A stretch of 54,109 bases of DNA from Candidatus Omnitrophota bacterium. GTDB lineage: Bacteria; Omnitrophota; Gorgyraeia; Zapsychrales; Fredricksoniimonadaceae. Under the pieces are notes generated by a model, which saw nothing but the letters and a program-made list of their open reading frames with translations, was not told the origin of the DNA and searched no databases. The stretch lies in NCBI GenBank assembly GCA_903901225.1, contig CAIUQE010000005.1, positions 1 through 54,109 of the forward strand, in the 5' to 3' direction. The first letter of the stretch is position 1. Each line of letters begins with the position of its first letter. Both the position numbers and the translations under genes were made by a program. Positions 7,974-24,506 of the stretch are shown here, piece after piece.

Positions 7974-8655
7974 CCTGCCTGAAACGGTAGCCCGCGCCGA
8001 TCACGGTCTCAATGAGGCCCCCGGCGACGGACAATTTGGACCGCAGACGACGCACGTGCGTGTCAACGGTGCGGGTGTAGATCTCGGCGTCAATGCCCCA
8101 GACGTCGGTCAAAAGCTTTTCACGGTCCTGCACGCGGCCCCGGCGCTCCATCAGCAGGGTCAGGAGCTTGAACTCCATGGCCGTCAACTTCACCTCGCGC
8201 CCCTTGACCGTCACGCGGTGGCGCTCCTTGTCCAACAGCAGGTCTTTGGCCGCGAGGACATCCCCAGCCTCAGCGCCGGCGCTATGACGCCGCAGCACGG
8301 CTTTCACGCGCAGCACAAGCTCGCGCGGGCTGAACGGCTTGACGATATAATCATCCACGCCAAGTTCAAGGCCGACGATGCGGTCAACCTCTTCGCCTTT
8401 GGCCGTGAGCATCATCACCGGGATGCGCTTGAGATCGGGATCGCGCTTGATGGCGCGGCATACCTCAAGCCCGTCGATGCCCGGCAGCATCACATCAAGC
8501 ATGACCAGATCAACGGACGCAGCCGCCAGCGCGGTGAGCGCGGCCTCTCCGGTTACCGCGATGGCACAGGCATAACCCGCCTTGTCCATGTTGTACTGGA
8601 TCAGGCGCGCGATGTCCTTGTCATCCTCGACGATCAATATTTTTTTCTTGGCCAT
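7957..8655 (-). CDS. phoB: OmpR/PhoB-family response regulator
   Basis: REC domain (VEDD, LDVMLP, LTAKGEE, KPFSPREL) plus winged helix (RTVDTHVRRLRSKL, GAGYRF); adjacent to phoR and the pst operon. Confidence 0.9.
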   Translation of the reverse strand: MAKKKILIVEDDKDIARLIQYNMDKAGYACAIAVTGEAALTALAAASVDLVMLDVMLPGIDGLEVCRAIKRDPDLKRIPVMMLTAKGEEVDRIVGLELGVDDYIVKPFSPRELVLRVKAVLRRHSAGAEAGDVLAAKDLLLDKERHRVTVKGREVKLTAMEFKLLTLLMERRGRVQDREKLLTDVWGIDAEIYTRTVDTHVRRLRSKLSVAGGLIETVIGAGYRFRQDDDED

Positions 8656-8872: not shown

Positions 8873-11800
8873 TTAGCGCACAAGGAACGCGCTCGGGTCT
8901 TCCAGTGGCCCGAATGCCGTGATCCTGAAATCAAATCCCCGAAAAAGCTGAAGGAATTGCAACGAACGCGCGACAGGCACGGTGGCCAAACCTGCGGACG
9001 ATGGCGCCGGAGTTGCCCTGAATTCAATATTATTCCGGGTCCCGCTGAGGTCCAATCCGCCGTTCTCAGGTGCCATCAGAACATTATCCCGCGCGGGGCT
9101 TTCCATGGAAGCATCCGCGCCATTTTCTTCCAGCAGCTTCACAGCCTCCTCCATACCCTCTTTCCCCTTGATATGCACCACCCTGGCCGCGCCGTAATGA
9201 GGCAGGACCGGATCATAGGTAAGGTCATCCCCCGCGTCCTTGCGGGCATTAACGAACATCTTGTAAAAAGTCTTAAAACGGTCACGGGCGTCATCGGGGT
9301 CACTGATCCCGTAATACTGCCCGATATCGGCGAAGCTGATCCGCTTGTTAAGATACCCTGTTAAGATCTCATCCTTGGCTTCCAGGAAATTATTAAGGAT
9401 ATCCGTAGTTATGTGCAAATATTTCAGCTGTGCCCACAATTCCGGGTCCTTCTGCAACCCATCCAATACGCTCTCCAGAACACTGACCGCTTTGGGACTA
9501 AAGACCATGACGCCGCTTAACGCGGGGAACTGCCTTAACGCAGGACGGTTCAGGTCGTACTGGTCTTCCAGGTACTTCAACACCTTGTTGCGATACGTCT
9601 TGCCGACGCCGTCTTTTTGAAGCGCCGGGATATCAAGTTTTTCAAGGATCTCGTTGAGCTCGACCCCCTCGGGAGAGAACTTCATCACGAGCAAACCCAA
9701 TGTCTGGAGTTCTTTCTGGTTGACCCAATCCCCCAGAAGATTCACATCATCGCCGGAAAATCTCGGCATGGGGCCGAAATACGCGTCACGGCTGTAAATG
9801 ATAATGTGCCCGCCCCGCGCGCGGCCATCTTCCGGCGCGCGCATGGACCCGGCGGCACGATACCCGTTCACAACTGTCCAATCAAGGATCCTGTCATTCT
9901 GATGGGCATTATTTCCGTGAAAAACAAACATCACGCGCACATCTTCAGGCGCGCGCCCCTTCAGTTCAGGATACTGTTCCAGGAACGCCCCGTCATTCAA
10001 TCTCTCCCGGACCCGCTGCATCGCTTCGAAATAAACATTCCCGCTGCCCTGACGCCGCGGCGCCACCACTTCAACCGGCACATCTTCCCTGAAGATATTT
10101 CCCCGGCGTCCGGGCACATACCGCTTTCCCAGATCATCGGCATACCCTCTATCTTCAGGGACGATCACGACCATATCCACCGAAGGCTTATCAGCAGTGA
10201 TCTCCCGCGTGAGCGCCTGGACGCCTTCCTGCAACGCCGAACGGACAGTTACCGCTTTGCCATCGCCCTGCGCGTCCATTGCGGCCGGTCCCAGCCGTGC
10301 CCCTAACCCGGCATCCAGCTTTTCGGTCACAGCCTTCATGGTCGAGCTCCACGACATCTGCATGATATCAATATGCGGCACCCAGTAGATCATCAGGCTG
10401 ATCATGACAGCGGCGACCCCCGCCAGCGTCAATCCGCTACTGGCCGAAATAATGCCCAGAAAACTCATGACAAGCGCCGCGCTCAACCCCAGGGGGCCTG
10501 AAATGGTGCGCACCCGGCTCCAAAAACTGCGCATCTTGAACTTGTGGCTGGGGGCTGACCTGATGGGCGACAGAAGACTTAAGGCTTTCTGTGTCACTTC
10601 CGACAATATCTTTTTACTTTCCTGCACAACATTCAACTGGGCATCCGACGGATACAATCCGGGCATCAAGGTATTGCCCTGGGCTAAAAGATCCGGCAAT
10701 TCTCCGAAAAGCCTTTTTTCAGAAAGACGCCACTGATATGTATAAAGAAGGACCCAGCGAAAGAACGGATAAACATTGAACCGTTCGGCCCAATGTGAGC
10801 CCGGGAGTTTATAGCTCATCACCTTGTCGATGATCCCCCGATGTTCCAGGACCCGTAAATACACGTGAACATAACTGATCATTTGCGCGAGGACGCGCGC
10901 GTCGCGCGCCAGCAGCTGCCGCTGATGCTCATCCATATCCGGGCTCTTTTTCACGGCATCATCAAGGACATTCAACGTATCAATGGCCAGCAAATTAAAA
11001 TAGCTGAAGGCCGTCTGGTAATGCTCGTTAAGGACAGTGCCTGATGAATTCACTTTTTCCATAAGATCAGGCGTATACGGCGTCATGCGCAGGACCTGGA
11101 ACGCGTTGTTGAGGATATTATTGAACCCGTCAACAATATCTTGCGACGGGACCGCCGCGCCAGCGCCCCGCCATCCATAAGCGATCTCCTGCCACCGGCG
11201 CAGAAAGTCCCCGATCCCGTCATATATGCCATCCCCGGGGATCGTCACAACGGCAGTCGTGCGTGCCGTTGCCGGCGGGACCGTGCCACGCCAGGCCGTC
11301 CATACGTCCTTCCAGCCGCGGGCATGCCCGTTCCCGTTCATGACCTCGACCGAAAATTCACGCCGGAGCGCCAGGATCAGGTCTTCGACGGAGGCCTTCT
11401 TCAGAAAAGACTTGTTGTTCCATCTCTTGAAAAAGAACACCGGCAAAAATATGACGCTGCCCCACAGGAGCAATTTGTTCATGAGGGGCATGGACGACAC
11501 ACTCTGGTCGTTATGGGCAATATCATCGGCAAACGCGTCCCTCCAATAAATGATGTCCTTCGCCAGCGCCCGTACTTCCCCGGCGCCGCGCTCTTGCACG
11601 CTGTCAAGATAACGCCCCACATCGCGGGGATCCGCGGCGGAGTTGATCCTCTGTTCCAGCGCGTCGATGAGCGCCAATTCGCCCTGCTTGTACGTATGCT
11701 GCAATCCCAGAAAATCGTTAAGAATGCCCTGGCGATACGGCTCGGTCTGCTTCAGGAGGGCCAAAGCCAGCCGCGTCGCCTCAACATTGATCTGGGCCTG

Positions 11801-14800
11801 GCGCATGTTACCCTGGCGGGGATCATCGGCCGTCCTCAACTCGGCGAAGGTGTACGTCTTCAGGCGGATATTCAGCGGCCAATCCTCTCCCAGATGCCGG
11901 GACATCTTTAAAAGGGCTTGACGCAAAATTCCGGTCGCGACCGGGTCTGGAACATCCCGCACATCTTTGGTCAAAAGATCGCTCCATTCGCCGCGGGCTT
12001 CAACAAGCGCGCATAATTCCGGGTCATCCGATGCCGCATAAACCTGCAGGGCCAGGATACGGCCTTGCGGCGTCGTCATCAGCCTGTCGAGGGCCATCCC
12101 TCTCAGGTCTGTCGGCAACGCGAATATCCGCCCCAGCTCCGGAATATCCTTCGTCTGAGAAATATAATTTTTCCGGGCATCAAGGCCAAGCCCGTTGAAA
12201 TAGGCCAGCAAAGGCGCATCATCAACGGAAGTCGCGGGAATATCGTACAATACCGGCGTCCTGGAAACCCCGGCAGCGAGGACGGCTCCCGCGCCTTCCC
12301 TGGCCCTGTCGGACAACCAGGCCGGGAGATGTTTTTCCACATCGCGCCACACGGGTGCTGACGCGAGGAACCGCGCATTGATGTTTTTCAAGCCTTCACC
12401 AAGCATGAAATACGCGTGAATATCTTTTTTTGTGAACAAGGGTGAAACTTTTTCATAGGAACCCCGGTTGATGTCTTCAATGCCGCGCAGGGCTTCCCGG
12501 CGGACGATCTCGTCGTAAACAAGTTGTCGTAAACTGACACTGCGGGCGTCCCGGGCTGTTTTCAGGGAGCTGTGGATCTCGCCCAGCTGGTCCGTGGTCC
12601 AGTAGTCGCTGCGCAACAACCGTATGCCGGCGATCGAGCCTTCCCCCGCCCAGGACAGGAACGTCACCATGACCCTTCGCGCCGCCTCCGGAGAAACGCG
12701 TGTGGCCGAGCCTCCCGCGGCGGATGAATAATTCAATTCGGATAGCCGTTTGATCCCGGCCGGATCCTGGGAAAAGATATCGCTCAAACCCTGAAACCCC
12801 CACGCGACAAGAGTAAATTTCTTTTGCCGGATGGCCTCGTCAATGACGCGCACAAAGAATCGGACATCGCCGCCATCCCTGCCGGCCATATACAAAAGAA
12901 GTCTCTGCTGGACATCGGGATACGCGGAATTCAGGACAGCCTGCTCGACAATACCGGTGAATTTCCGATCATGCCTTCCTTCCTGTAAAAGGAAGTCCAG
13001 CGTTTGCTGGCGCACGATCTCATTAGGTTCCTGCGTAAGGATCCTCAGCGTTTCATCGGACAACCCGTCCGATCCCGCGATGAATGCCAGCGCAGCACCA
13101 CCGGACTTGATGTCATTCTCATACGTGACAGATCCGGGTGTAAAGAACCCGTCGCTGGGTGGTGTAACGACCCGCGCCATATGGCCCTGGAGGGGCGCAA
13201 TGGCAGGTTCAACCGGTCTTTGTGCTTTCCTGGGACGATGATCAACCACCGCCTGCGGTGAACCCACCGCCTCTCTGACCGCGGTGACCGTGTCATTGAT
13301 GACCGGCATCTGTTTCTGGGGCGCCGGCACTGGTTCCTCCACTACTGGCTCGCGCTTGCCCCCCATGTTATTTTTTACGACCCAATCTTTAACCTGCACA
13401 GATGCCTTGAAATATTTCGCTTTAAGATCATCCAGCTTGAGGGCGAGCTCCGTAACTTTCGCGCGCTCATGGACCAGCTGATCCGGACGAAAAAGATCCG
13501 ACTGCCGCAGGCTGTTCTCCCAGGCCTGACGGGCAGAATAATAGGCCGCTGTCTGCACCCTGATCTGCCGGCTCAACGCATCCATCTCCGCAACCGCCCG
13601 CGCTTCCGCAATGGACATATCCTGCAATTCCCAGGAACGGGGATTAAAAGCGCCTCTCTTGTCGATATACACACGCGGGAAATTGCCTTCCCATGGGTAC
13701 TGAAAAACTTTCTTTTCGTTTAAAGGCCATCCCATACTATCCATGAGATAGTTCTTATTGCGCTGTGCATCAGCCAGCTTTTGGCGCGCGTCCTGGATCT
13801 GCTGGTCCAGCGTATTCTTTGCGGACGTAAGCGCAAAGCCTGCCGCCTCCCTCGCCGCAAGCCCGGTACCGGCACTCTCGAGATCAGCCACCAGCTTCGT
13901 CCATTGATCAATATCACGCCTGGCTTTTTCGATATCGACTTTCAGGGCCGTTGACGGCGTGAATTCTTCAGGCATGCCCTTAAAGAAGGCAACGCTTGAC
14001 GCCGACGGCGCCTGGGGCAATGCCACCGGCGGTGTGAGCGGGACGGCATTGACCGGTGATGCCGCAACATTTTGAGATTGCGTAACAGGCTGTGCAGGCA
14101 GCAACGGTGGAACAACCCTTCTCCTGGGTGGCTCTGACCCTGCCGCTGACATCTTCACAGCCCTGGTGCGTGGCACGGGCGATTTCAATGCCGGCCCGAA
14201 CTTCTTGAGGACAAACTGCTTTTCGGCATCGGTGAGCACAATGACCGTGACCGGCATATTGGTCCCCAAAAAATGATGGGGGTCATTAGCCGTAACCTCG
14301 ATCGCCTGGACCGCCCCCAGATTCCTGTCCCGGCTTATGGGGTTTTTATTGATGTTCGTGACGGTCCCCGTAACATTTTTCCCAAAAGCCCGCAGCAGGA
14401 CGGGATCGCCCATTCTGATATCAAGCGCGCGGGGCAGAAGGATCGCGGCGTTCATATTGGTCATATCCCCGACACGGACTGGGCCCTTCAGCGATAGGAT
14501 GGTGTCACCGGGGCCGAAGGAACGCTGGGTCGATATCCCCGTGACAATGCCCGCGCAAGGCGCGGTGATGTTGGAACGGCTGATCACGGCGCCAAGCCCG
14601 CCGAGGCGCGCCCCCAACGACGCTTTTTCTTTCTCCAGCGCCACCATTTGATCGGCGGAAATATAATGGACCCCGTCTCTCGGGGCAAAGCGCTGGAGCT
14701 GGGCACTCACGCGGTCATACTGGGCCCGTGTCGCGCCGTATTCCCCCTGGGCGCCCGGCTGGCTGGCGAGCAACTGGCCGGCTTTTACCAACTGGCCTTC

Positions 14801-17488
14801 CGTAACAAAGAATTTCACCGCGCCAAGGGCCGGCGCCACAACGGGTGACTCTTGCGCCACGCCGACAACAGCGCTCGTTTGCGCCACCCCGATCACCGTG
14901 CCCAGATCAACCTCCGATGCTGATGACGGGAACGCGACGCGCACATCATGGGCGGATCCGGCCTCGATGTTCAGCGATGTGGTGACAAGGAACGTGACAA
15001 CCGCCTCGGTCCGCTTCAAGGGATCCACGCGACAGGCCACGCTGACGATCCCGGTCACAGGCTTGCCATCGATCGTGACGCGAACGCGGCTAAAGTCTGT
15101 TTGCGTCACGGGCATCCTCACGCTGAAACCTGCCCTCTGCCCGGAAAGATAATTGACCAGAGGCATGCCTTTCGCGACCGTCTGCCCGTTAGCAACAATA
15201 AAATTCTTAACCGACAAGTTACAGGGCGCGTAAATGGCACCCGCCTGCTGCGCCTGCAGGAGCGGGGCCAATTGCCGGGAAATATTCGCGACGTCCGTAT
15301 TAACAGCGTCGATCTCGGCCATGGTCGCGGCTTGCTGGCCCTGCAAAGACTTCAACATGGCCAGCCGCTGCCGGGCCATGGCGAGCTGCTGCCTTAGCCC
15401 GCCCATTTGAGGATCGATCGCGGGATCCACCAGCCTGAACATGAACGCACCTTCCCGATATTCTTTCTTATTCGGGTTCAAACCCGTGACAATACCGCCC
15501 GTCGGGGACTTGAGCGGTATCTCGTTGAGCTCGAACGTTGTCCGGATCGACAGTTCATACCCCTTCTTATCCGTTGAAGGTGGCGTGGGTCTCGCCGGTG
15601 CTGGCGCAAGCGCCGGCAAGGACTTGGACGGCTCAGCCTTCACGGGCGCAGGCGCGGGGACTTTGGACGCTGCCTTTTGGCGCACAGCTTCTTGCACCTG
15701 CTTCTGAAATAATGGCGGGGCCTCTTGCTGTTTCATTGGAGCCGTGGCTTTGGTTTCAAGCACATTCCCGGCAGGTGATGCCTCCGTTATTGCCGCTGGA
15801 GGCGCGACCTTCTGTTGTGGCGCCATCCGTGCTTCGAGCGCGCGACGAGTTTCCGATCCCAGCTTCCCGTCTTCCCTGAGCCCCAGGGCTCTTTGCGCCA
15901 CCACGATCACCGCTTCCTGTTGCCAGCCCATGCTCGAAGGTGAAAAAACAGCGTCCCAATGCTGGTGGAGATTTTTCCAGTCAAAATCATACGCCCTCCC
16001 GCTCGACGGGTTTACCTTACCCTGGATATCCCTCACCGCATCCTGGCTCAGGAACCCTTTCATCAAAGAAAAATACTTCTGATCCTGCGCCGGGATCATA
16101 TCGCCCCGACTCACAATATTTCCGGATACCGCGACCGGCCTCTCCGGCCTGGTTAGTCCGGTTGGCCCGGCAACGCTGGTGACCGACGCCGGCTGGGCGT
16201 AAGCGGTATTCTGAACACCGGTAAAGGACGCGGGAGGCGCCAATAATCCAGCGGCAAGAACAAGACTGTACAGGGCTTTGCGGGACATCCCCCGCGATGC
16301 CAGGGAAATCGTAAAACTGTAAAATTTGCTACCCAGGCGCCCCATCAGCTCGCGCAAGTCCGTTAAAGACGGTATCGACCGGTACTCAACGCTCTGGGCC
16401 GCGTCCTTGAATGAAAACCCGCCTGAAAAATAACGGCGCGGGACCATCTGCCGTTCCGTCGGGTCATAATCCTCGCGGATAACATCGTAGACACCTTTTT
16501 TCAACGCCAGCATGTACTGCGCGTAGATCTTCCGGCTGACCTCGCGGTCTTCGTCCTGGATACCGGAAAGCTTTCTCTGGTCCGTATATATCCGGTTAAT
16601 GATATTGTCCTGAAGCTTGCGTTTGAACCAGATGGCCAGGACCAGGGAATTGAACATCTGCCGCAGGCTGGCAAAATACTGGCCCTCATTCACTTCCCGT
16701 TCAAGCTCCGGGATAATGATCTCACGCGCGATGGACAAATAAAGTTTATTGGCTGGCCCGACAGACTCCGGCGCGGCGGGGCCGTCCGTCATCCCCTTTT
16801 TCATGGTCATGTAATCCGCGTCGAGCATCACCTTGAGCCGGCTTTCCGATATGAAGGCCGCGCCTTTTTGTTCATAGACAACAGCTTTCTGGGGAACCAC
16901 CCAAACCTTGCTGATCGTGTCCAACGGCACATCGACACTGCCGTATTCTTTTCTGATCTTCGCGTAGACCCGCTCCCAGAACGTCTTGCCCGGCTCCCGG
17001 TCAGGGAACGTCATGGACGCGGCCAGCTGTTTGAGCAGATAATCTTCCCGGAGCATGTCCCCGCCCGCGGCGGTCCCGCTCAGGGACTTATTAACGATAC
17101 GGTCAGGTTCGGTGGGCGAAAGGTTGACCCAGAGGTCTTCTTCAGGGATGGTCAGGAATGTCAGGAAATAGCGGGTCAACCGGCTGGATCCTTCCTGGTC
17201 CACGCGCCCGTGATCACCGGCATCGACGAGAAAGTTGATCTTCAAAGGATCCGCGGGATCAAGGGCTATGCCTTTGAGGACCGGCAGGGAACCCACGGGC
17301 GAAGCGGTCAACACAACACCAGGGGGAGGTTCCACGATCACGCTTTGGGCCCGCGCCTCCCGCACCCGCAACAGATCAGGCCCGATCAGCTCACTGCCAA
17401 AGACAAGCACCAGCAACCAGCAGGCGCAGCGAAACCATGCCTGCCGCTGTAAACCGGATAAACTTCCTTTGAAGCTGGAACGCAACAT
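8873..17488 (-). CDS. Giant (2871 aa) multidomain envelope protein, Omnitrophota-giant-protein-like
   Basis: Uninterrupted 8.6-kb ORF with SD-like AAAGGAAAC upstream. By eye: signal peptide, conserved-looking N-terminal domain, internal signal-like segment, PG-binding motif, two HlyD-like units, coiled coils, HEAT-like region, 3 TM helices, nucleotidyltransferase-like domain, GGLDL C-terminal motif. Confidence 0.85.
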   Translation of the reverse strand: MLRSSFKGSLSGLQRQAWFRCACWLLVLVFGSELIGPDLLRVREARAQSVIVEPPPGVVLTASPVGSLPVLKGIALDPADPLKINFLVDAGDHGRVDQEGSSRLTRYFLTFLTIPEEDLWVNLSPTEPDRIVNKSLSGTAAGGDMLREDYLLKQLAASMTFPDREPGKTFWERVYAKIRKEYGSVDVPLDTISKVWVVPQKAVVYEQKGAAFISESRLKVMLDADYMTMKKGMTDGPAAPESVGPANKLYLSIAREIIIPELEREVNEGQYFASLRQMFNSLVLAIWFKRKLQDNIINRIYTDQRKLSGIQDEDREVSRKIYAQYMLALKKGVYDVIREDYDPTERQMVPRRYFSGGFSFKDAAQSVEYRSIPSLTDLRELMGRLGSKFYSFTISLASRGMSRKALYSLVLAAGLLAPPASFTGVQNTAYAQPASVTSVAGPTGLTRPERPVAVSGNIVSRGDMIPAQDQKYFSLMKGFLSQDAVRDIQGKVNPSSGRAYDFDWKNLHQHWDAVFSPSSMGWQQEAVIVVAQRALGLREDGKLGSETRRALEARMAPQQKVAPPAAITEASPAGNVLETKATAPMKQQEAPPLFQKQVQEAVRQKAASKVPAPAPVKAEPSKSLPALAPAPARPTPPSTDKKGYELSIRTTFELNEIPLKSPTGGIVTGLNPNKKEYREGAFMFRLVDPAIDPQMGGLRQQLAMARQRLAMLKSLQGQQAATMAEIDAVNTDVANISRQLAPLLQAQQAGAIYAPCNLSVKNFIVANGQTVAKGMPLVNYLSGQRAGFSVRMPVTQTDFSRVRVTIDGKPVTGIVSVACRVDPLKRTEAVVTFLVTTSLNIEAGSAHDVRVAFPSSASEVDLGTVIGVAQTSAVVGVAQESPVVAPALGAVKFFVTEGQLVKAGQLLASQPGAQGEYGATRAQYDRVSAQLQRFAPRDGVHYISADQMVALEKEKASLGARLGGLGAVISRSNITAPCAGIVTGISTQRSFGPGDTILSLKGPVRVGDMTNMNAAILLPRALDIRMGDPVLLRAFGKNVTGTVTNINKNPISRDRNLGAVQAIEVTANDPHHFLGTNMPVTVIVLTDAEKQFVLKKFGPALKSPVPRTRAVKMSAAGSEPPRRRVVPPLLPAQPVTQSQNVAASPVNAVPLTPPVALPQAPSASSVAFFKGMPEEFTPSTALKVDIEKARRDIDQWTKLVADLESAGTGLAAREAAGFALTSAKNTLDQQIQDARQKLADAQRNKNYLMDSMGWPLNEKKVFQYPWEGNFPRVYIDKRGAFNPRSWELQDMSIAEARAVAEMDALSRQIRVQTAAYYSARQAWENSLRQSDLFRPDQLVHERAKVTELALKLDDLKAKYFKASVQVKDWVVKNNMGGKREPVVEEPVPAPQKQMPVINDTVTAVREAVGSPQAVVDHRPRKAQRPVEPAIAPLQGHMARVVTPPSDGFFTPGSVTYENDIKSGGAALAFIAGSDGLSDETLRILTQEPNEIVRQQTLDFLLQEGRHDRKFTGIVEQAVLNSAYPDVQQRLLLYMAGRDGGDVRFFVRVIDEAIRQKKFTLVAWGFQGLSDIFSQDPAGIKRLSELNYSSAAGGSATRVSPEAARRVMVTFLSWAGEGSIAGIRLLRSDYWTTDQLGEIHSSLKTARDARSVSLRQLVYDEIVRREALRGIEDINRGSYEKVSPLFTKKDIHAYFMLGEGLKNINARFLASAPVWRDVEKHLPAWLSDRAREGAGAVLAAGVSRTPVLYDIPATSVDDAPLLAYFNGLGLDARKNYISQTKDIPELGRIFALPTDLRGMALDRLMTTPQGRILALQVYAASDDPELCALVEARGEWSDLLTKDVRDVPDPVATGILRQALLKMSRHLGEDWPLNIRLKTYTFAELRTADDPRQGNMRQAQINVEATRLALALLKQTEPYRQGILNDFLGLQHTYKQGELALIDALEQRINSAADPRDVGRYLDSVQERGAGEVRALAKDIIYWRDAFADDIAHNDQSVSSMPLMNKLLLWGSVIFLPVFFFKRWNNKSFLKKASVEDLILALRREFSVEVMNGNGHARGWKDVWTAWRGTVPPATARTTAVVTIPGDGIYDGIGDFLRRWQEIAYGWRGAGAAVPSQDIVDGFNNILNNAFQVLRMTPYTPDLMEKVNSSGTVLNEHYQTAFSYFNLLAIDTLNVLDDAVKKSPDMDEHQRQLLARDARVLAQMISYVHVYLRVLEHRGIIDKVMSYKLPGSHWAERFNVYPFFRWVLLYTYQWRLSEKRLFGELPDLLAQGNTLMPGLYPSDAQLNVVQESKKILSEVTQKALSLLSPIRSAPSHKFKMRSFWSRVRTISGPLGLSAALVMSFLGIISASSGLTLAGVAAVMISLMIYWVPHIDIMQMSWSSTMKAVTEKLDAGLGARLGPAAMDAQGDGKAVTVRSALQEGVQALTREITADKPSVDMVVIVPEDRGYADDLGKRYVPGRRGNIFREDVPVEVVAPRRQGSGNVYFEAMQRVRERLNDGAFLEQYPELKGRAPEDVRVMFVFHGNNAHQNDRILDWTVVNGYRAAGSMRAPEDGRARGGHIIIYSRDAYFGPMPRFSGDDVNLLGDWVNQKELQTLGLLVMKFSPEGVELNEILEKLDIPALQKDGVGKTYRNKVLKYLEDQYDLNRPALRQFPALSGVMVFSPKAVSVLESVLDGLQKDPELWAQLKYLHITTDILNNFLEAKDEILTGYLNKRISFADIGQYYGISDPDDARDRFKTFYKMFVNARKDAGDDLTYDPVLPHYGAARVVHIKGKEGMEEAVKLLEENGADASMESPARDNVLMAPENGGLDLSGTRNNIEFRATPAPSSAGLATVPVARSLQFLQLFRGFDFRITAFGPLEDPSAFLVR

Positions 17489-17776: not shown

Positions 17777-20125
17777 TCATTTCTTCTCAATAACCACGCG
17801 CCAGTGGTCGCCCTGGCGCTCCTGCAGGATGATCTTGTGCCCTTCATCCCGAACCGAGCCAGGAACATTCTCTATAGGCGCGCCATCATCAAGCCATATT
17901 TCCAGAAGATCGCCGGCTTTCAACCTGGCCAGTTCGACCTTGGTCTTGACGAAATTGAACGGGCAAAGGACGCCGCGCAGGTCTTTGGTGGCTGCCGGCG
18001 CGAGGGCCGCGACCTGAACCGGTACCGGCGCTTCAACCGCGGCAACGGGCGGCTTCCTGAAATTGAAGCCGTTATCCATGTTCTCATACAGCACATTGAT
18101 CGCGCGGGCCAGGGCCTGGATATTTTCTTCCTGCGGCACGAGAGCATCGAACTCCTTGCGCTCGGCCAGGGCCACGAGGCCCTCGAACGCGGGATCCACA
18201 TGCCCCGCGGCAATGAAATGCTGGCGGAAGGCATCGTACAATTCCCTGTCGGTCTTCGGTTCAACACCGCGCGTGATCAACAGCGCCCGGCTCGCGAAAA
18301 AGACCAACTGGCCCAACAGCGGCCCTTTCTGGTCCGCCGCGGCGGTGGAAAGTTTTTCCCGCGTCCGACGGATATTGTTCAGGTCCAGTTCAATGAGGTC
18401 AAAAAGCCCGGTTGAACATTCGCCGGCACCCCGTTCGGCCAGCGAGAAGACCTTCGCGGCGCTCCAGTCAAAATAATAATTCTTGTCGTCGTCAAACGCG
18501 GGGATGTCCTTGTAACGCGCGATAATGGCAACCAGGTCGTCTTTGCCTTCACCGGCGATATACTCTTTGAACGTCGCGAAGCGGTCCGCCTTGCCCAGGA
18601 ACGCGGCGAGGAGGTTTTCCACCACAAGCGTGATCGCCCTGGCGGGGATATCTCCCACCAATGCCGCGAGCTTCGTCGTGCCATCGTGGATCACTGCCCC
18701 CGCGTAAACGCTATAAGCGGGATACATGTGCCCGTCCTTGCGCAGGGCCTTACCGGCAAAGCCCAGGTCCGCGGCCGGATGATGCCCGCAGGAGTTCGGG
18801 CATCCGGAAATATTCAACCGGATCTCCCCGACCTTGTCCAGGTCCAGGCCGCTTGAACCCAGCGACTGGATCAACGCCCGCGCCGCCTGGCGCGAAAGGC
18901 AAATGCCCAGCTGGCAGGTCGAGGCACCCGCGCACGAAAGGACCCGCCCCAGCAAAGCAGGCTTGGGCACAAGGGGCAGCACCCTCACCAGAAAAGCATG
19001 GACTTCCTCCAGCTTTCCCGCCGGGATATTCCGCAACAGGAAATTCTGGCCCCGCGTCACGCGCACGACATCATCGCCAAACCCACCCAGGAACCGCGCC
19101 AGCGCGCCGGCCCCATCGCAGGAAATGAACCCGAGTTCCACCGGCACAAGGACCGAAAAAAGCCCGGCCTGTTTCTGTTCCCTGACATAACGCGCGCGCC
19201 ACAGGACAAACTCCGGCTCACCCGGGCCAGGGTGGACCGCCGCCGTCACGGCGCGCCCGGCCTGGGGCTCGTCGAGCGTGAGCGGCGCGTGCCCCTCCTG
19301 CGTGACCTTATTGAACTCCTCATAAAAACGCCGCTTGAATTCTTCCGCGCCCAGGCCCTGCCACAGGAACCTCAGCCGCGCCGCGTGCTTGTTCTTGCGG
19401 TTGCCGTATTTCCAGAACAGGTTCTTGACGGCCTTGGCGATGGGATAAACCTGCGTGTCGTCGACGAAATCGAACAGGAGGTTCCCGACGGCTGACCGCA
19501 CCCCCAGCCCTCCGGCGACATGAACGCGAAATCCTTTTTTACCATCCACGATCCTCGCGATGAACCCCAGGTCGGCCAATGTCGCCTGCCCCTTGTCGTG
19601 CTCCGAGCCGGAAAAAGCGATCTTGTATTTGCGGGGAAGGTTCCAGGAATCGTTCTCCGCGATAAGGCGCGTGGTCAGCGCCGCCGCGTAAGGCGTCACA
19701 TCAAAAACTTCCAGAGGATCGATCCCGGCATCGTCCTGCGCCGCGATATTGCGCACCGTGTTCCCGCCGCCGCCGCGCGTGGAAAGCCCGGCCTCTTTCA
19801 ACTGGCGGATCACCGCGACAAGGTCGTCCAGCTTCACATAATGGATCTGCAATTCCTGCCGCGAGGTCAAATGCAGGTCACCGACGCCGTAGCGCGCGGC
19901 GATCGCGGCGACCTTCTCCAGCTGGCCCGGGGTCACGATACCGGCGACACAGCGGATGCGCACCATGTACGTGTCCGCCTCTCGCTGTTCATAAACACCG
20001 AACGGGACGCGATGGACCTTAAGCTCGATGGGGGCTATCGCGCCGGCGCGGAATTTTGCTATCAACGCTTCGAGCTGGCCGATCTCCTCATCAAGCTGCG
20101 GCGGGATCTTATAACCTGTCGTCAT
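17777..20125 (-). CDS. sir: Siroheme/4Fe-4S sulfite reductase with C-terminal TusA/SirA-like sulfur-transfer domain
   Basis: FGVYEQR, HLTSRQELQIH, NLPRKYKIAFSG, SCAGASTC...ISGCPNSCG cluster ligands, C-terminal DLRGVLCPFNFVK. Start taken at ATG 20125 after GGAGGT. Confidence 0.88.
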   Translation of the reverse strand: MTTGYKIPPQLDEEIGQLEALIAKFRAGAIAPIELKVHRVPFGVYEQREADTYMVRIRCVAGIVTPGQLEKVAAIAARYGVGDLHLTSRQELQIHYVKLDDLVAVIRQLKEAGLSTRGGGGNTVRNIAAQDDAGIDPLEVFDVTPYAAALTTRLIAENDSWNLPRKYKIAFSGSEHDKGQATLADLGFIARIVDGKKGFRVHVAGGLGVRSAVGNLLFDFVDDTQVYPIAKAVKNLFWKYGNRKNKHAARLRFLWQGLGAEEFKRRFYEEFNKVTQEGHAPLTLDEPQAGRAVTAAVHPGPGEPEFVLWRARYVREQKQAGLFSVLVPVELGFISCDGAGALARFLGGFGDDVVRVTRGQNFLLRNIPAGKLEEVHAFLVRVLPLVPKPALLGRVLSCAGASTCQLGICLSRQAARALIQSLGSSGLDLDKVGEIRLNISGCPNSCGHHPAADLGFAGKALRKDGHMYPAYSVYAGAVIHDGTTKLAALVGDIPARAITLVVENLLAAFLGKADRFATFKEYIAGEGKDDLVAIIARYKDIPAFDDDKNYYFDWSAAKVFSLAERGAGECSTGLFDLIELDLNNIRRTREKLSTAAADQKGPLLGQLVFFASRALLITRGVEPKTDRELYDAFRQHFIAAGHVDPAFEGLVALAERKEFDALVPQEENIQALARAINVLYENMDNGFNFRKPPVAAVEAPVPVQVAALAPAATKDLRGVLCPFNFVKTKVELARLKAGDLLEIWLDDGAPIENVPGSVRDEGHKIILQERQGDHWRVVIEKK

Positions 20126-20516
20126 GCACAACCTCCAGTGTTTCTTCCGTGACCTGCCCGTTCTTTATCCAGAATGCCCTGACGTCTTCGTGGCCGTCCG
20201 CGAGCGATACGATCACATAAAGCTTCCCGGCGTCGTACGCAAGGCGGATGTCCTCAGCCGAAGGCCGCGCCGGGCTGGCCGGATGGCTGTGGTAGACCGC
20301 CTCAAGCGACGTGCCTTTGGCCCGGGCCTCCCTGGTCGCCGCGAACTGCTCCCGGGGATCAAAGGAAAAATGTTCGGGGCTTTTGTCGCAATTCGTCAAT
20401 TCATGGATCCCCGCCAGGACCCCGTCCTTCACAGCGAGGTAGCCGCACGCTTCCAGCGGCGCTTCACGACGGGCATGGGCCAGCAGTCGCTCTTGGATAT
20501 CCCCGGTGATCCTCAT
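20109..20516 (-). CDS. JAB/MPN (M67) metalloprotease, sulfur-carrier processing (HcyD/Mec-like)
   Basis: EACGYL and YHSHPASPARPSAED JAMM motif. Start taken as MRITGD at 20516. Confidence 0.9.
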   Translation of the reverse strand: MRITGDIQERLLAHARREAPLEACGYLAVKDGVLAGIHELTNCDKSPEHFSFDPREQFAATREARAKGTSLEAVYHSHPASPARPSAEDIRLAYDAGKLYVIVSLADGHEDVRAFWIKNGQVTEETLEVVHDDRL

Positions 20517-20517
20517 C

Positions 20518-21333
20518 CTAACCCCGCCCCCGGCTCTTGAGATCGCACACCGCCGGCTCAGCGTCAACGAGCGTCGTTATCGAAGGCCTCTCGCCGCACA
20601 CGGGGCACGCCGGATTCCTGGCGAACTTCACGGTGCGGAAATTCATGTTCAGCGCGTCAAAGACCAGCAGGCGGTTGACCAGGAGCTCGCCCTTGCCGAT
20701 AAGAAAACGCAGGACCTCCGCCGCCTGGATCGTGCCCAGCATGCCTGCCACAGCACCCAGGATGCCGGCCTGTGAACAGGTCGGTACCGCGCCCTTGGGC
20801 GGCGGCGCCGTGAACACGCAACGATAGCAGGCCTGCCCCGGCACGTAGGTCAGCGTCTGGCCGTCGAAACGCAGGATGCCGCCGTGCGAAAAGGGCTTGC
20901 CGCCCAGAACACACGCGTCATTGATCAGGAACTTGGCCGCGAAATTATCCGTCCCGTCGACAATAAAATCGTAATCCTTGATGATGCCCGCGATGTTGGC
21001 CGCAGCGACCCGCGTTTCATACGTGATAACCCTGACATCCGGATTGATGGCCGCGATCTTGTCTTTGGCTGACAGCACCTTGGGCCGCCCGACATCGGGC
21101 GTAAAATGGATCACCTGCCGCTGCAGGTTGGAAAGGTCGACCACATCCCCATCGACGAGGCCTATTGTCCCCAGACCGGCCGCCGCCAGGTACAATGCCA
21201 CGGGCGCGCCCAGCCCGCCGGTGCCGATGATAAGCACCTTGCCGGCCAATATCTTTTCCTGGCCTTCAACACCGACATTGCCCAGGATGATGTGGCGGCT
21301 GTAACGCTCGATCTGCGCGTCGTTCAAATTCAT
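20518..21333 (-). CDS. ThiF/MoeB-family (E1-like) adenylyltransferase (HcyF-like)
   Basis: RYSRHI, GTGGLG, DLSNLQRQ, DGTDNF, CYRC and CPVC Zn motifs, catalytic-type PTCSQAG. Confidence 0.93.
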   Translation of the reverse strand: MNLNDAQIERYSRHIILGNVGVEGQEKILAGKVLIIGTGGLGAPVALYLAAAGLGTIGLVDGDVVDLSNLQRQVIHFTPDVGRPKVLSAKDKIAAINPDVRVITYETRVAAANIAGIIKDYDFIVDGTDNFAAKFLINDACVLGGKPFSHGGILRFDGQTLTYVPGQACYRCVFTAPPPKGAVPTCSQAGILGAVAGMLGTIQAAEVLRFLIGKGELLVNRLLVFDALNMNFRTVKFARNPACPVCGERPSITTLVDAEPAVCDLKSRGRG

Positions 21334-22571
21334 GCCGAAGCCTCCAGGCTTTGTTGGATATCAGCGATCAGGTCACGGCCCTCCTCGATCCCCACGGACA
21401 CCCGGACCATGGTGTCACGCACGCCCATAAGCTGCAGCTGGGCGGCGTCATATTCACCGAAGATCGTCGACGCCGGATGGATGACCAGCGAACGGTTATC
21501 GTGCAGGTTGGTCGCCCGGCGCAACAATTGCAGGGCGTTGATGAACTTGAAGCACTGTTCTTTTGATGTCAGGTCAAACGTCAGCACCGCTCCCGGTTTG
21601 TCGCCGAACTGCGCCCGCGCCGCGGCGTAATACGGCGATGATGCCAGGCCCGGATAATGGACCGAACGCGCAAGGCCGCTGGCCTGCAGGAACTCAGCGA
21701 TCTTCAACGTATTGGCACATGACTGATCGACCCTCAGCGCCAGCGTCTCGAGGCCAAGGCTCTGCAAATAAGCGTTATGGGCTGAAAGGCAGGCGCCGGT
21801 ATTACGATGAACTTCACGCCGTAAACGGCTGATGAAGGCGAAAGGGCCGAACTTTTTGGCGTCCGTCGCGAGCTTCGCGTTGCGTGCCCAGTCGTAACTG
21901 CCATGGTCGATGATGACACCGCCCAGGCTGGTCGCCCCACCCGAGATCCACTTGGTGCTGGAAATAACCTCCACATCCACGCCGAAAGCCTTGGCGCTGA
22001 AAAGATACGGCGGGGTCATGGTCGTGTCCGCGATGATCAGCACGCCCGCCGGCCGCGCCACCGCGGACAAAGCAAGGATATCCGCGACCTCCAGCTGGGG
22101 ATTGGTGATCGTTTCAAGAAAAATGGCCTTTGTCCGCCCGTCGAACAGGCGCGCCACCTCACCCGCCTGTGTCAGGTCGGCATAGCGCGTCTCCAGGCCC
22201 CATTCCTTGAGCGTCTGCTCCAACAAAGAGTACGTATTGCCGAACAAATGGCGGCTCGTGATGATATTGTCACCAGCCTTGGCGATCGTCAGCAGGGTGT
22301 TGGCAATGGCGGCCATGCCCGACGCCAGCGCGAGCACGCCCGCAGCCCCCGTCACGGCCTTGAGGCGTTGCTCAAAATGTTCCACCGTCGGGTTGCTGAT
22401 GCGCGAATACATGTGCGCCGGGCTTTTGCCCTTGAAGGCCAGCTCCAGCTCCTCCGCCGTCTTGAACTCAAAGGTGACATTGTCATAGACCGGCATGTGC
22501 AGAGAGCCGTGCGCGTCCGCCTTGAGGAACTTCGCGTGCAGTATCTTTGTCGAGAACGCCCGGTCGCTCAT
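21330..22571 (-). CDS. metY: O-acetylhomoserine sulfhydrylase-like PLP enzyme (Cys/Met metabolism family)
   Basis: YSRISNPT, ASGMAA, ETITNP, SSTKW (PLP Lys), IHPASTI, VRVSVGIE. Confidence 0.8.
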   Translation of the reverse strand: MSDRAFSTKILHAKFLKADAHGSLHMPVYDNVTFEFKTAEELELAFKGKSPAHMYSRISNPTVEHFEQRLKAVTGAAGVLALASGMAAIANTLLTIAKAGDNIITSRHLFGNTYSLLEQTLKEWGLETRYADLTQAGEVARLFDGRTKAIFLETITNPQLEVADILALSAVARPAGVLIIADTTMTPPYLFSAKAFGVDVEVISSTKWISGGATSLGGVIIDHGSYDWARNAKLATDAKKFGPFAFISRLRREVHRNTGACLSAHNAYLQSLGLETLALRVDQSCANTLKIAEFLQASGLARSVHYPGLASSPYYAAARAQFGDKPGAVLTFDLTSKEQCFKFINALQLLRRATNLHDNRSLVIHPASTIFGEYDAAQLQLMGVRDTMVRVSVGIEEGRDLIADIQQSLEASA

Positions 22572-22789
22572 ATGTCCCTTTTCGCCCCGCCGCCCATGAA
22601 ATAAATAAAATCCACCTCATCATCCTGGGCGACCGGCGTCTGGGCGAGTTTTTCTTTCGCGACAAATTCACCGTTAAGCTGCACCGCGACCATTTCGGGA
22701 TTCGCGACACTGGAACGTTGCAGCACCTCGGCCACCGTGAGCGCGGCTTCAGCGGCCGTAAAAACCTTGCCATTCACCTTCAGCGTCAT
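22568..22789 (-). CDS. ThiS-like sulfur carrier protein with C-terminal extension (HcyS-like)
   Basis: 73 aa, MTLKVNGK...VAVQLNGEFV...DEVDFIYFMGGGAKRDI, with SD AAAGGAG upstream. It is hidden in the 3' end of ORF 22568..23260. Confidence 0.9.
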   Translation of the reverse strand: MTLKVNGKVFTAAEAALTVAEVLQRSSVANPEMVAVQLNGEFVAKEKLAQTPVAQDDEVDFIYFMGGGAKRDI

Positions 22790-22815
22790 TGTCACGTCTC
22801 CTTTATTAAACATGT

Positions 22816-23634
22816 TCAGCGCCCGCGCTTGATGGCCATTTCCACGGTCGTTTTGGCGATCAGCGTGACAATGGCCAGGAGCGCCAGGACCGACGCCGCG
22901 GCGAACGCGGCCGTGAACTGATATTCGTTGTATAAAATTTCCACGTGCAGCGGCAATGTGTTCGTCAGCCCCCGGATGTGGCCGGAAACGACCGAGACGG
23001 CGCCGAACTCGCCCATCGCGCGGGCATTGCACAGGATGATCCCGTAAAGGATGCCCCAGCGGATATTCGGGATCGTCACCCGCCAGAACGTTTCCCAGCC
23101 GCTCGCGCCGAGCGTCAGCGCGGCTTCCTCTTCCTCGCTGCCCTGGGAGCGCATGATGGGGATCAGTTCCCGCGCCACCATCGGGAACGTCACAAAGATC
23201 GTGGCCAGGATGATGCCCGGCGGGGCGAACACGATCTGGATGTTGTGCGCCACCAGCCACGGCCCGAAATAACCCTGCGCCCCGAAGAGCAGGATGAACA
23301 CGAGCCCCGAGATCACCGGCGAGACCGACAATGGCAGATCGATGAGCGACAACAGGAGGTTCTTGCCCTTGAAATCGAATTTGACGATCGCCCAGGATGC
23401 CGCCACGCCGAACACAAGGTTCAACGGGACCGCCACCAGCGCCGTCGTCACGGTCATGCGCATGGCGGCAAGGGCGTCCGGATGCCGCAAGGTCTGCACG
23501 TAGTAAACCCAGCCTTTTGAAAAAGCATGAAAAAAAACACAGAACAGCGGCAGGAGCACAAAAACGCCGAAGAAGGCCAACGCGATGGTGATGAGCGCTA
23601 TCCTGACAAATCTGGGTTCCGTTTGCGCGTTCAT
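22816..23634 (-). CDS. cysW: Sulfate ABC transporter permease CysW
   Basis: DLPLSVSPVISG, EEEAALTLGA, ARAMGEFGAVSVVSG, TLPLHVEILYNEY. Confidence 0.95.
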   Translation of the reverse strand: MNAQTEPRFVRIALITIALAFFGVFVLLPLFCVFFHAFSKGWVYYVQTLRHPDALAAMRMTVTTALVAVPLNLVFGVAASWAIVKFDFKGKNLLLSLIDLPLSVSPVISGLVFILLFGAQGYFGPWLVAHNIQIVFAPPGIILATIFVTFPMVARELIPIMRSQGSEEEEAALTLGASGWETFWRVTIPNIRWGILYGIILCNARAMGEFGAVSVVSGHIRGLTNTLPLHVEILYNEYQFTAAFAAASVLALLAIVTLIAKTTVEMAIKRGR

Positions 23635-23642
23635 CGTTTACC

Positions 23643-24479: not shown

Positions 24480-24506
24480 GCGTTCACCGGAGATTTATAA
24501 AATTAG

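What the first reader, a model, noticed from the sequence alone, without database searches (positions are those of the whole stretch)
16320..17330. Conserved-looking N-terminal cap domain of the giant protein
Seen: a compact globular region with LKGIALDPADPLKINFLVD, YFLTFLTIPEEDLWVNLSP.EPDRI, DYLLKQL, KVWVVP, IPELEREVNEG..FA.LRQ and PRRYFSGG. From memory these motifs open many Ca. Omnitrophota giant proteins whose interiors differ, and the DYLLKQ segment recalls DUF1598. Inference: a reusable export, assembly or processing module and a taxonomic marker for this contig.
Basis: inference. Interest (0 to 1): 0.7.

Follow-up and report, generated by a model that had tools for sequence, protein, structure and literature searches.

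The report
Unnamed Omnitrophota N-terminal export cap
The flagged stretch is a real, unnamed protein domain of about 310 residues that follows an export signal at the start of thousands of large Omnitrophota proteins with otherwise unrelated bodies, and about 45 genes in this one small genome carry it.

Summary
All six motifs lie at aa 55-390 of a 2871-aa ORF (window 8873-17488).

The domain ("N-cap", aa 48-357) matches no Pfam, NCBIfam or PDB sequence. Its model (pLDDT 75.7) matches no solved or viral fold. DUF1598 does not match.

The family is very large: 7721 50%-identity clusters, with the domain always at the N-terminus. Relatives that carry an organism name are almost all Omnitrophota. 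It was found in 69 of 301 sampled genomes of the phylum, all in the window's class, and in 26 of 28 genomes of its order.

This 2.38-Mb genome has about 45 copies, 7% of its coding capacity. Paralogues share only the N-cap and, new here, a ~65-aa C-terminal cap. The bodies between them differ and include extra copies of cytoplasmic-type enzymes. A Sec-type leader with a cleavage-like site precedes the N-cap in 167 of 188 proteins.

The window's gene belongs to an early-branching subfamily that is collinear over its full length with its orthologue. It has MFP-like and membrane segments, lies next to the Pho/Pst locus, and has no detectable C-cap.

Best reading (inferred): an exported docking or anchoring handle for modular cargo proteins. 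The mechanism is unproven.

The parts
8873..17488 (-). Whole gene: 2871-aa protein (P0001) that carries the N-cap
   Evidence: ORF list and translation. It is collinear with the same-genus orthologue P0007 at 44% identity over 2897 alignment columns.
17348..17488 (-). Leader, aa 1-47: basic n-region, hydrophobic core WFRCACWLLVLVFGSELIG, then ...EARA|QS
   Evidence: Hydrophobic segment directly before the domain. Family-wide heuristic: 167 of 188 complete N-termini have a K/R n-region, a hydrophobic core and small-x-small before Q/E. In the window's subfamily the c-region is charged (DLLRVREARA), so cleavage is less certain here. This reading is my own and comes from no predictor.
16418..17347 (-). 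N-cap domain, aa 48-357, ending in PRRYFSGG. This is the finding.
   Evidence: Searches; alignment A1; boundary motif [RK][KR][YF]F[SA]GG in 233 of 252 family proteins; paralogue similarity stops at aa 364.
16196..16417 (-). Subfamily-specific extension, aa 358-431, with a second signal-peptide-like segment (MSRK-ALYSLVLAAGLLA...AYA|Q)
   Evidence: Conserved only in the ~3000-aa orthologue group P0003-P0029, and absent from the other family members printed. The signal-peptide resemblance is read from the sequence.
15809..15925 (-). Weak peptidoglycan-binding-like stretch, aa 522-560
   Evidence: PG_binding_1 E 0.025 and PG_binding_3 E 0.058, both below the Pfam cut-offs. A lead only.
14525..14848 (-). 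Membrane-fusion-protein (HlyD/RND adaptor)-like stretch, aa 881-988
   Evidence: TIGR01730 RND_mfp E 3.9e-7, 29 bits, below the cut-off of 94.9. Orthologues carry precomputed PF25919, PF25984, PF25917 or PF00364 hits, which I take from memory to be HlyD/biotin-lipoyl-type families.
10379..11485 (-). Three strongly hydrophobic segments, about aa 2002-2020, 2329-2347 and 2352-2370
   Evidence: Kyte-Doolittle scan, 19-residue window at 1.6 or more (ORF numbering minus 11).
8876..9130 (-). C-terminal 85 aa, with only a motif-level likeness (GGLDL...GFDFRI..PL..FL) to the family's C-cap
   Evidence: Aligned by MAFFT in A2. NOT detected by a C-cap HMM built without this protein. Orthologues give only sub-threshold hits at the same terminal position; 1 of 31 reaches E<=1e-3.

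Best explanation
SHOWN. It sits directly behind a Sec-type leader at the start of a very large, lineage-restricted family of modular Omnitrophota proteins. In the multiplied paralogues the layout is: leader, N-cap, a variable body of 300-3600 aa, then a conserved C-terminal cap of about 65 aa. The variable bodies include extra copies of cytoplasmic-type enzymes. The window's own protein belongs to an early-branching subfamily with a fixed body (PG-binding-like and MFP-like stretches, membrane segments) and no detectable C-cap. Its gene lies next to the Pho/Pst phosphate-uptake locus. INFERRED MECHANISM. The leader takes the chain through the Sec pathway. The N-cap then acts as a common docking or anchoring handle in the cell envelope, not as a catalyst, and brings many different bodies to one shared place or partner. 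In the paralogues the small C-cap is the more likely signal for crossing the outer membrane. This follows the logic of T1SS adhesins, which pair an N-terminal retention module with a C-terminal signal, and of T9SS cargo. What the handle binds is unknown.
For: Modularity. An in-genome paralogue shares only aa 39-364 (40% identity) with the window protein, while the orthologue is collinear throughout. N-caps up to 92% identical sit on bodies that share only a ~75-aa terminal piece. Of 780 paralogue pairs, 20 share a body HSP of 100 aa or more.
Position. The domain starts at aa 1-111 (median 40) in 206 of 206 retrieved proteins.
Leader. 167 of 188 complete N-termini have a K/R n-region, a hydrophobic core and small-x-small before Q/E, with Ala at -1 in 152 and Gln at +1 in 156, a median of 5 residues before the LPxPG motif.
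C-cap. A C-cap HMM hits 41 own-genome genes, 38 of them N-cap genes. The other 3 are one piece lying directly after an N-cap gene, one gene at a contig start, and one 254-aa gene. The C-cap lies within 67 aa of the C-terminus in 155 of 206 proteins.
Genome level. The C-cap occurs in 31 of 301 genomes. The within-order tallies are identical to those of the N-cap, and all 31 are N-cap positive.
Bodies. 10 of 40 own paralogues have Pfam hits: HATPase_c, UDPGP, TPR, HD + methyltransferase + deaminase, AvrB_AvrC, GT2, 2'-5' RNA ligase, HAD, and a Cys/Met PLP enzyme. Relatives elsewhere carry PGK, TIM, GAPDH, enolase, PPDK, receiver domains, kinases and helicases.
Extra copies. Housekeeping PGK and TIM are stand-alone genes in 5 of 5 family-f1 genomes. 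The extra TIM of G232 is the N-cap-fused one.
Envelope context of the founder. It has MFP-like and PG-binding-like stretches. It lies beside a PhoB-like regulator, a porin and PstSCAB here and in G221 and G232, and a distant low-copy homologue lies inside the Pst locus in G127 and G283. In the tree the window's subfamily separates from the clade that holds all 29 other own paralogues.
Against: No localisation, cleavage, binding or partner was shown. The signal-peptide call is my own heuristic, not SignalP or DeepTMHMM. In the window's subfamily the c-region is charged, and a second signal-like hydrophobic segment follows the domain, so its topology is unresolved.
Many bodies are ATP- or NAD-dependent, cytoplasmic-type enzymes with no obvious role in a periplasm or on a surface.
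The 35 invariant columns include many polar residues (N78, E83, D105, K109, Q110, E221, N223, R232, Q233, R307). This pattern would also suit a ligand-binding or catalytic site.
No conserved neighbour gene points to a partner: among 174 neighbour genes the largest similarity cluster has 2 members.
The window protein itself has no detectable C-cap, so the two-cap scheme is not shown for this gene.
The tree is a quick search with a midpoint root.
Confidence: 0.45

Rival explanations
1. Delivery domain of an effector arsenal. The N-cap, alone or with the C-cap, carries the bodies out of the cell and into or onto a host or prey cell. There the cytoplasmic-type enzymes (glycolytic enzymes, kinases, nucleotide-modifying enzymes) would act.
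For: The bodies are typical of cytoplasmic biochemistry and are extra copies beside the housekeeping genes. One paralogue has an AvrB_AvrC effector-family match, E 1.2e-22. There is massive paralogue expansion with near-identical N-caps on unrelated bodies. Passages read in PMC10066038 and in bioRxiv 10.1101/2023.11.21.568195 infer predatory or host-dependent lifestyles for Omnitrophota. The latter also notes cytoplasmic-type enzyme domains in predicted extracellular parts of large Omnitrophota proteins.
Against: The early-branching, fixed-body member (this window) looks like an envelope-resident protein, not a cargo carrier. No translocon gene co-varies or co-locates: ShlB/TpsB-type transporters occur in 141 of 301 genomes without following the N-cap pattern (f1 5/7, f4 3/8, f6 1/6, f7 14/15), and there are no recurrent neighbours. 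No fold likeness to any known translocation domain was found.
Confidence: 0.25
2. The N-cap is itself an enzyme or an intramolecular processing or folding domain. For example, it could mature, cleave or modify the downstream body or an envelope polymer.
For: There are many invariant polar and charged residues in conserved motifs (WVNLSPxExDRI, GRDLLxQDYxLKQ, EKEVNEGxNFAxLRQ, PRKYFSGG). The domain boundary is a sharply conserved motif, present in 233 of 252 proteins, which could be a processing site.
Against: There is no match to any enzyme family by sequence or by fold. No classical catalytic signature is evident. A purely catalytic role would not require a fixed position at the mature N-terminus.
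Confidence: 0.15
3. Cytoplasmic-face membrane tether. The hydrophobic N-terminus is an uncleaved anchor, and the N-cap and bodies stay in the cytoplasm as membrane-bound enzyme arrays.
For: This would make sense of ATP-dependent bodies. bioRxiv 10.64898/2026.06.07.730766 (passages read) reports that 46% of long Omnitrophota proteins are predicted as TM-only, with the bulk cytoplasmic.
Against: The n-regions are basic, and the site after the hydrophobic core follows the -3/-1 rule in 167 of 188 proteins. This predicts N-in/C-out and cleavage. Most paralogues have no second hydrophobic segment to bring the chain back: 58 of 233 have one scoring 1.5 or more within 120 aa after the domain.
Confidence: 0.1

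Closest known systems
LapA-type T1SS adhesins (N-terminal retention module, variable middle, C-terminal secretion signal). Recalled from general knowledge; not fetched here.
   Same: A conserved globular module at the N-terminus, a long variable middle and a small conserved module at the extreme C-terminus. The window's own protein also carries an MFP-like stretch.
   Different: The family here has Sec-type leaders, which T1SS substrates lack. No RTX (HemolysinCabind) repeats appear among the Pfam hits of the window protein or of the 40 paralogues. There is no sequence or fold likeness.
T9SS cargo proteins (Sec leader plus C-terminal sorting domain)
   Same: A leader at one end, a small conserved domain at the very C-terminus and many paralogous cargo proteins per genome.
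   Different: NCBIfam and Pfam scans of 33 C-caps give no consistent family; each family matches 2 or fewer members at weak E-values. T9SS cargo has no common N-terminal domain. T9SS is known from Bacteroidota (recalled).
SLH-anchored S-layer-associated proteins (leader, anchoring domain, variable enzyme)
   Same: A leader followed by a shared N-terminal module on tens of paralogues with different bodies. This matches the anchoring-handle logic proposed here.
   Different: No SLH or other known anchoring domain matches. The bodies here are largely cytoplasmic-type enzymes, not exoenzymes.
Two-partner-secretion and polymorphic toxin proteins (TPS domain / CdiA, Rhs, LXG)
   Same: A conserved N-terminal module with swapped C-terminal parts, and near-identical N-parts on unrelated bodies.
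   Different: No TPS-domain Pfam match. The model is alpha/beta, not a beta-helix. TpsB-type genes do not follow the N-cap distribution. Tandem paralogues abut with almost no room for immunity genes, and no recurrent neighbour was found.
Omnitrophota giant proteins / 'Archaeovorins' (bioRxiv 10.1101/2023.11.21.568195; PMC10066038; bioRxiv 10.64898/2026.06.07.730766; passages read)
   Same: The same phylum, with large multi-domain proteins that have leaders or TM segments and cytoplasmic-type enzyme domains in predicted extracellular parts.
   Different: Those papers deal with ORFs above 20 kb or 10,000 aa. In the passages read they state that N-terminal regions 'generally lack identifiable domains'. 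The N-cap/C-cap family (mostly 700-3500 aa) is not described in the passages I saw.

Membership tests
DUF1598 (PF07643) | Match to the Pfam model (84 positions, cut-off 25 bits) | tested here: not met
   No match in the whole own genome at E<=10. No Pfam family falls on aa 1-500 of the protein at E<=1.
Any curated family (Pfam-A 2025, NCBIfam r20) | HMM match over the N-cap | tested here: not met
   The window protein was scanned at E<=1 and 40 paralogues at E<=1e-5. No hit falls on the N-cap. The precomputed Pfam lists of 120 relatives name no family common to them.
Two-partner secretion (TPS) exoprotein | TPS domain (Pfam Haemagg_act) after the leader | tested here: not met
   No such Pfam hit. 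The predicted secondary structure is mixed helix and hairpin, not a beta-helix.
Two-partner secretion (TPS) exoprotein | A TpsB (ShlB-type) transporter that co-occurs | tested here: not met
   PF03865 is present in 141 of 301 genomes without following the N-cap pattern. It is absent from 16 of the 28 sampled genomes of the window's order and present in 14 of 15 genomes of N-cap-negative family f7.
T9SS cargo | C-terminal domain matching the T9SS sorting-domain models | tested here: not met
   33 C-caps were scanned against NCBIfam and Pfam at E<=1. There are no T9SS models among the hits, and no family is hit by more than 2 members.
T1SS retained adhesin (LapA-like) | No Sec leader; RTX repeats before a C-terminal signal | tested here: not met
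   A leader with a cleavage-like site is present in 167 of 188 proteins. No RTX repeat family appears among the Pfam hits.
Polymorphic toxin-immunity system | A cognate small immunity gene directly downstream of each variable end | tested here: not met
   Among 174 neighbour genes the largest similarity cluster has 2 members. Eight adjacent pairs of family genes lie close together, with stop-to-stop ORFs overlapping or separated by 3 to 615 bases.
Known protein fold (PDB, BFVD) | Structural match covering the domain | tested here: inconclusive
   Foldseek against PDB: 0 hits at E<=1e-3, best E 0.029 with TM 0.11. VIA-align against 48,161 chains: 0 with Z>=5, best Z 4.3 over 49 residues. BFVD: best E 0.11. 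The model has pLDDT 75.7, and sub-domains were not searched separately.

The most novel reading that the evidence does not exclude
The N-cap and C-cap are the two ends of a previously unrecognised, lineage-specific protein export and display pathway. One clade of ultra-small Omnitrophota would use it to send dozens of whole enzymes per genome, including complete glycolytic and signalling enzymes, across its envelope to a host or prey cell or into a surface coat. The window's Pst-linked, MFP-like 2871-aa protein would be the ancestral envelope component from which the cargo carriers radiated.
Probability: 0.25. Interest if true: 0.9.

Novelty: new variant of a known kind. Interest (0 to 1): 0.75.

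Why it matters
About 7% of this 2.4-Mb genome's coding capacity, and up to about 80 first-look candidate loci per genome in relatives, goes to proteins built on one unnamed frame. No database names this frame, and none of the papers I could search describes it.

If the frame is an export or anchoring system, it would explain where the many 'cytoplasmic' enzyme domains of large Omnitrophota proteins end up. That puzzle is already noted in the giant-gene literature.

The frame would also give a concrete handle for studying how these uncultured, host-dependent nanobacteria interact with other cells: two short HMMs, a predicted cleavage site and a founder gene.

Practically, an N-cap HMM and a C-cap HMM would annotate thousands of 'hypothetical' proteins and flag a defined Omnitrophota subclade in metagenomes.

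Tried and rejected
- DUF1598: no match.
- Single-sequence AlphaFold model: too poor to use (pLDDT 46).
- PDB sequence-profile search: the N-cap gives 0 hits at E<=10. The C-cap's best hit is E 0.019 to an adhesin fragment, not pursued.
- Fold searches in PDB and BFVD: nothing significant. Weak rows for V-ATPase subunit a, ClyA-type toxins and phage baseplate hairpins have TM 0.1-0.17 or cover only one helical hairpin, and were rejected.
- ESM Atlas: only unnamed Omnitrophota clusters.
- Homodimer test of the N-cap (complex prediction, 2 copies, residues 8-322 of A1): 'no answer', score 0.00. This is no evidence either way.
- Recurrent-neighbour search for a partner, chaperone or immunity gene: none.
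- TpsB co-occurrence: none.
Whether the N-cap also heads proteins above 10,000 aa is therefore untested.
- C-cap in the window protein: not supported by a leave-one-out HMM, so I do not claim it.
- Literature searches with the terms listed: no description of this module. 'DUF1598' occurs in 0 papers. Supplementary domain tables of the three Omnitrophota papers were not opened and could list it.


Full report
**1. The observation**

The flagged coordinates lie inside one ORF, 8873..17488 on the minus strand (2871 aa). Its translation contains all six quoted motifs between aa 55 and 390. The plus-strand ORF 16868..17452 (194 aa) lies entirely inside this gene. I did not search it and take it to be a by-product.

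**2. No database names the domain**

Pfam-A and NCBIfam scans of the whole protein at E<=1 place nothing on aa 1-500. They give only weak PG_binding hits (aa 522-560, E 0.025 and 0.058), a biotin-lipoyl-like hit, and an RND/HlyD-adaptor hit (TIGR01730, aa 881-988, E 3.9e-7, below its cut-off).

PF07643 finds nothing in the whole genome at E<=10.

A profile of the domain finds no PDB sequence at E<=10. The ESM Atlas returns only unnamed clusters whose few recorded taxa are Omnitrophota.

**3. Size and shape of the family**

With aa 45-400 as query, an exhaustive HMMER search of 1.84 billion cluster representatives gives 7721 hits at E<=1e-3 and 5981 at E<=1e-30. In the 150 best hits the match always begins between residues 1 and 106 of the target, and the targets are 372-5358 aa long.

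A second search, restricted to proteins of 1579-5025 aa, gives 1081 hits. Their precomputed Pfam domains downstream are extremely varied. They include PGK, TIM, GAPDH, enolase, PGI, PPDK, UDPGP, hexokinase, receiver domains, HATPase, Ser/Thr kinases, PP2C, helicases, radical SAM and HEAT repeats. No family is common to them.

In the 206 retrieved proteins the domain starts at a median of aa 40 (range 1-111). It occurs once in 205 of them and as two matched stretches in 1.

**4. Taxonomy**

Of the 12 listed relatives that carry an organism name, 11 are Candidatus Omnitrophota or Omnitrophica and 1 is labelled Desulfobulbaceae.

A scan of one genome per species found 610 relatives. Of the 80 best loci, 57 are titled Omnitrophota, Omnitrophica or Ca. 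Aceula, and 23 are titled 'uncultured Planctomycetales' in third-party assemblies.

In an even sample of 301 genomes of the window's phylum, 69 have the domain. All 69 are in the window's class. That includes 26 of the 28 other sampled genomes of its order (families f1 7/7, f2 4/4, f3 1/1, f4 8/8, f5 1/2, f6 5/6) and 29 of 41 of family f18. The sample also held genomes of other classes (rows marked 'same phylum'), and none of these is among the positives.

The domain therefore marks a subclade, not the whole phylum.

**5. Expansion in this genome**

The window's 2.38-Mb assembly (94.8% complete) gives 54 matches in 48 ORFs. With a simple gene caller these are 46 genes or gene pieces. Their median length is about 1000 aa, against 290 aa genome-wide. 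They make up 7.3% of all coding residues and 23 of the 66 genes of 1000 aa or more.

Some copies are tandem: there are eight adjacent pairs, and five copies within 18 kb on contig C49. Relatives in family f1 show 16-81 first-look candidates per genome.

**6. Modularity**

The same-genus orthologue P0007 is collinear with the window protein at 44% identity over 2897 alignment columns. The in-genome paralogue L064 shares only aa 39-364 (40% identity), and nothing after ...YFSGG.

The boundary motif [RK][KR][YF]F[SA]GG is present in 233 of 252 family proteins. N-caps up to 92% identical sit on bodies that share only a terminal piece of about 75 aa. Of 780 paralogue pairs, only 20 share a body HSP of 100 aa or more.

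Pfam hits in the bodies of 40 own paralogues occur in 10: HATPase_c, UDPGP, TPR, HD + methyltransferase + dCMP deaminase, AvrB_AvrC, GT2, 2'-5' RNA ligase, HAD and a Cys/Met PLP enzyme. The other 30 have none at E<=1e-5.

**7. A second, C-terminal cap (new here)**

The short shared terminal piece is a conserved module of about 65 aa at the extreme C-terminus. Its motif is GGIDL...DPAM...G.TPVI..I.P....F.G.

- By motif, it is present in 35 of the 40 own genes that have a full N-cap.
- An HMM of it hits 41 own genes, and 38 of these are N-cap genes. The other 3 are a piece lying directly behind an N-cap gene that lacks the cap, a gene at a contig start, and one 254-aa gene.
- In the retrieved set it is found in 155 of 206 proteins, always within 67 aa of the C-terminus. 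With a model built without the window protein the count is 138 of 206.
- It has no consistent Pfam or NCBIfam match.
- Across the 301 sampled genomes it occurs in 31. The within-order tallies are identical to those of the N-cap, and all 31 are N-cap positive.

The window protein itself is not detected by the leave-one-out model. Its orthologues give only sub-threshold hits at the same terminal position, and 1 of 31 reaches E<=1e-3. I therefore do not claim a C-cap for this gene.

**8. Leader**

In nearly all own-genome copies one hydrophobic segment lies directly before the domain.

Of 188 family proteins with a complete N-terminus, 167 have a K/R-bearing n-region, a hydrophobic core and a small-x-small site before Q/E. 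Ala is at -1 in 152 and Gln at +1 in 156. The site lies a median of 5 residues before the conserved LPxPG. This is my own heuristic, not a trained predictor.

It predicts Sec export and cleavage, which would put the N-cap at the mature N-terminus.

In the window's subfamily the c-region is charged (DLLRVREARA|Q). A second signal-like segment (aa 401-431) follows a subfamily-specific extension. Its topology is therefore open.

**9. Structure**

With the 43-row alignment, AlphaFold gives pLDDT 75.7 and pTM 0.76. The model is alpha/beta: an N-terminal hairpin, several helices, a long central beta-hairpin, two long helices and a small C-terminal sheet.

- Foldseek against PDB: no hit at E<=1e-3 (best E 0.029, TM 0.11).
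- VIA-align against 48,161 chains: none with Z>=5 (best Z 4.3 over 49 residues).
- BFVD: best E 0.11.

Sub-domains were not searched separately, so 'new fold' remains unproven.

**10. The fused enzymes are extra copies**

In 5 of 5 family-f1 genomes PGK and TIM are ordinary stand-alone genes (open frames of 400-465 and 252-274 aa). They lie side by side on one contig in all five. G232 has a second TIM inside a 1666-aa ORF, and this ORF starts with the N-cap (E 2e-151). This argues against the idea that the cell's own glycolysis is what is being tethered.

**11. The window gene as founder type**

Downstream of the window gene lie an OmpR/PhoB-type regulator, a histidine kinase, a porin, and PstS, PstC, PstA and PstB homologues.

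The same neighbourhood follows the orthologues in G221 and G232. In the distant family f18, a low-copy N-cap protein of about 1450 aa lies inside the Pst/PhoU locus in G127 and G283. It does not do so in G097.

The G127 protein shares the N-cap with the window protein (32% identity, E 1e-32). It also gives one weak extra HSP to the window protein's C-terminal region (E 0.003).

In a quick maximum-likelihood tree with a midpoint root, the f18/f27 forms are the outgroup. The window's subfamily separates from the clade that holds all 29 other own paralogues (supports 86-92). This suggests, but does not prove, that an envelope protein linked to phosphate uptake was the ancestor of the cargo-bearing radiation.

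**12. Partner search**

Among 174 genes flanking the paralogues, no similarity cluster has more than 2 members. ShlB/TpsB-type transporters occur in 141 of 301 genomes and do not follow the N-cap pattern. A homodimer prediction gave no verdict; it is listed only under attempts.

**13. Reading**

Shown: a new, sharply bounded, leader-preceded N-terminal module on a huge modular family, paired in the paralogues with a C-terminal module.

Inferred, at about 0.45: the N-cap is a shared extracytoplasmic docking or anchoring handle, and the C-cap is the more likely outer-membrane export signal.

Rivals: a delivery domain for effectors (0.25), an enzymatic or processing domain (0.15), and a cytoplasmic-face tether (0.1).

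**14. Literature**

I read only matched passages of three papers:

- PMC10066038.
- bioRxiv 10.1101/2023.11.21.568195.
- bioRxiv 10.64898/2026.06.07.730766.

They discuss giant ORFs, leaders or TM helices, and cytoplasmic-type enzyme domains in predicted extracellular regions. The second states that the N-terminal regions of giant genes 'generally lack identifiable domains'.

None of the passages describes this module. Seven full-text searches found no description either. The supplements were not opened.

Noticed in passing
own genome, e.g. G000:C49:17738-35042 (five tandem copies); loci L031-L070: The paralogues carry a conserved C-terminal cap of about 65 aa (GGIDL...DPAM...G.TPVI..I.P....F.G) at the extreme C-terminus. 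It co-occurs with the N-cap at protein level and at genome level, and has no Pfam or NCBIfam name.
   Followed up: yes
window 933-8655 (-): Directly downstream of the giant gene lie a PhoB-like response regulator (7957-8655), a histidine kinase (6195-7973), a Porin_5 porin (4555-5880), and PstS-, PstC-, PstA- and PstB-like genes. The same linkage to an N-cap gene recurs in G221 and G232 and, in a different gene order, in G127 and G283.
   Followed up: partly
window 16196-16288 (-), aa 401-431: A second, internal signal-peptide-like segment (MSRK + ALYSLVLAAGLLA ... AYA|Q) lies after the N-cap. It is conserved in the ~3000-aa orthologue group only, and looks like the leader of a once-separate gene.
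   Followed up: partly
window 17777-20131 (-): A 784-aa protein that joins two nitrite/sulfite-reductase modules to a C-terminal TusA sulfurtransferase domain. It lies beside genes for ThiF-family, Cys/Met PLP enzyme, ABC permease, solute-binding and Porin_O_P proteins (window 20518-27033). This looks like a sulfur-assimilation cluster.
   Followed up: no
window 51461-53110 (-): A ShlB/TpsB-type outer-membrane transporter gene (PF03865, E 2.9e-26), found while testing co-occurrence. A second copy lies at G000:C46:44431-45225.
   Followed up: no
L050 (G000:C34:31989-37091, minus strand), aa 1142-1202: One paralogue's body matches Pfam AvrB_AvrC (avirulence/effector family), E 1.2e-22, over only 61 residues of the profile.
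   Followed up: no
G000:C7:34774-38491; G000:C27:9-3635; G000:C37:196012-201429: Several family genes appear split into two adjacent frames: an N-cap piece followed by the rest or by a C-cap piece. These could be frameshifts, assembly errors or pseudogenes.
   Followed up: no
G232:C67 (locus L091), ORF of 1666 aa: A complete second triose-phosphate isomerase (Pfam TIM positions 3-242 of 245, E 1.6e-67) is fused behind an N-cap. The housekeeping pgk and tpi genes stand alone on another contig.
   Followed up: yes
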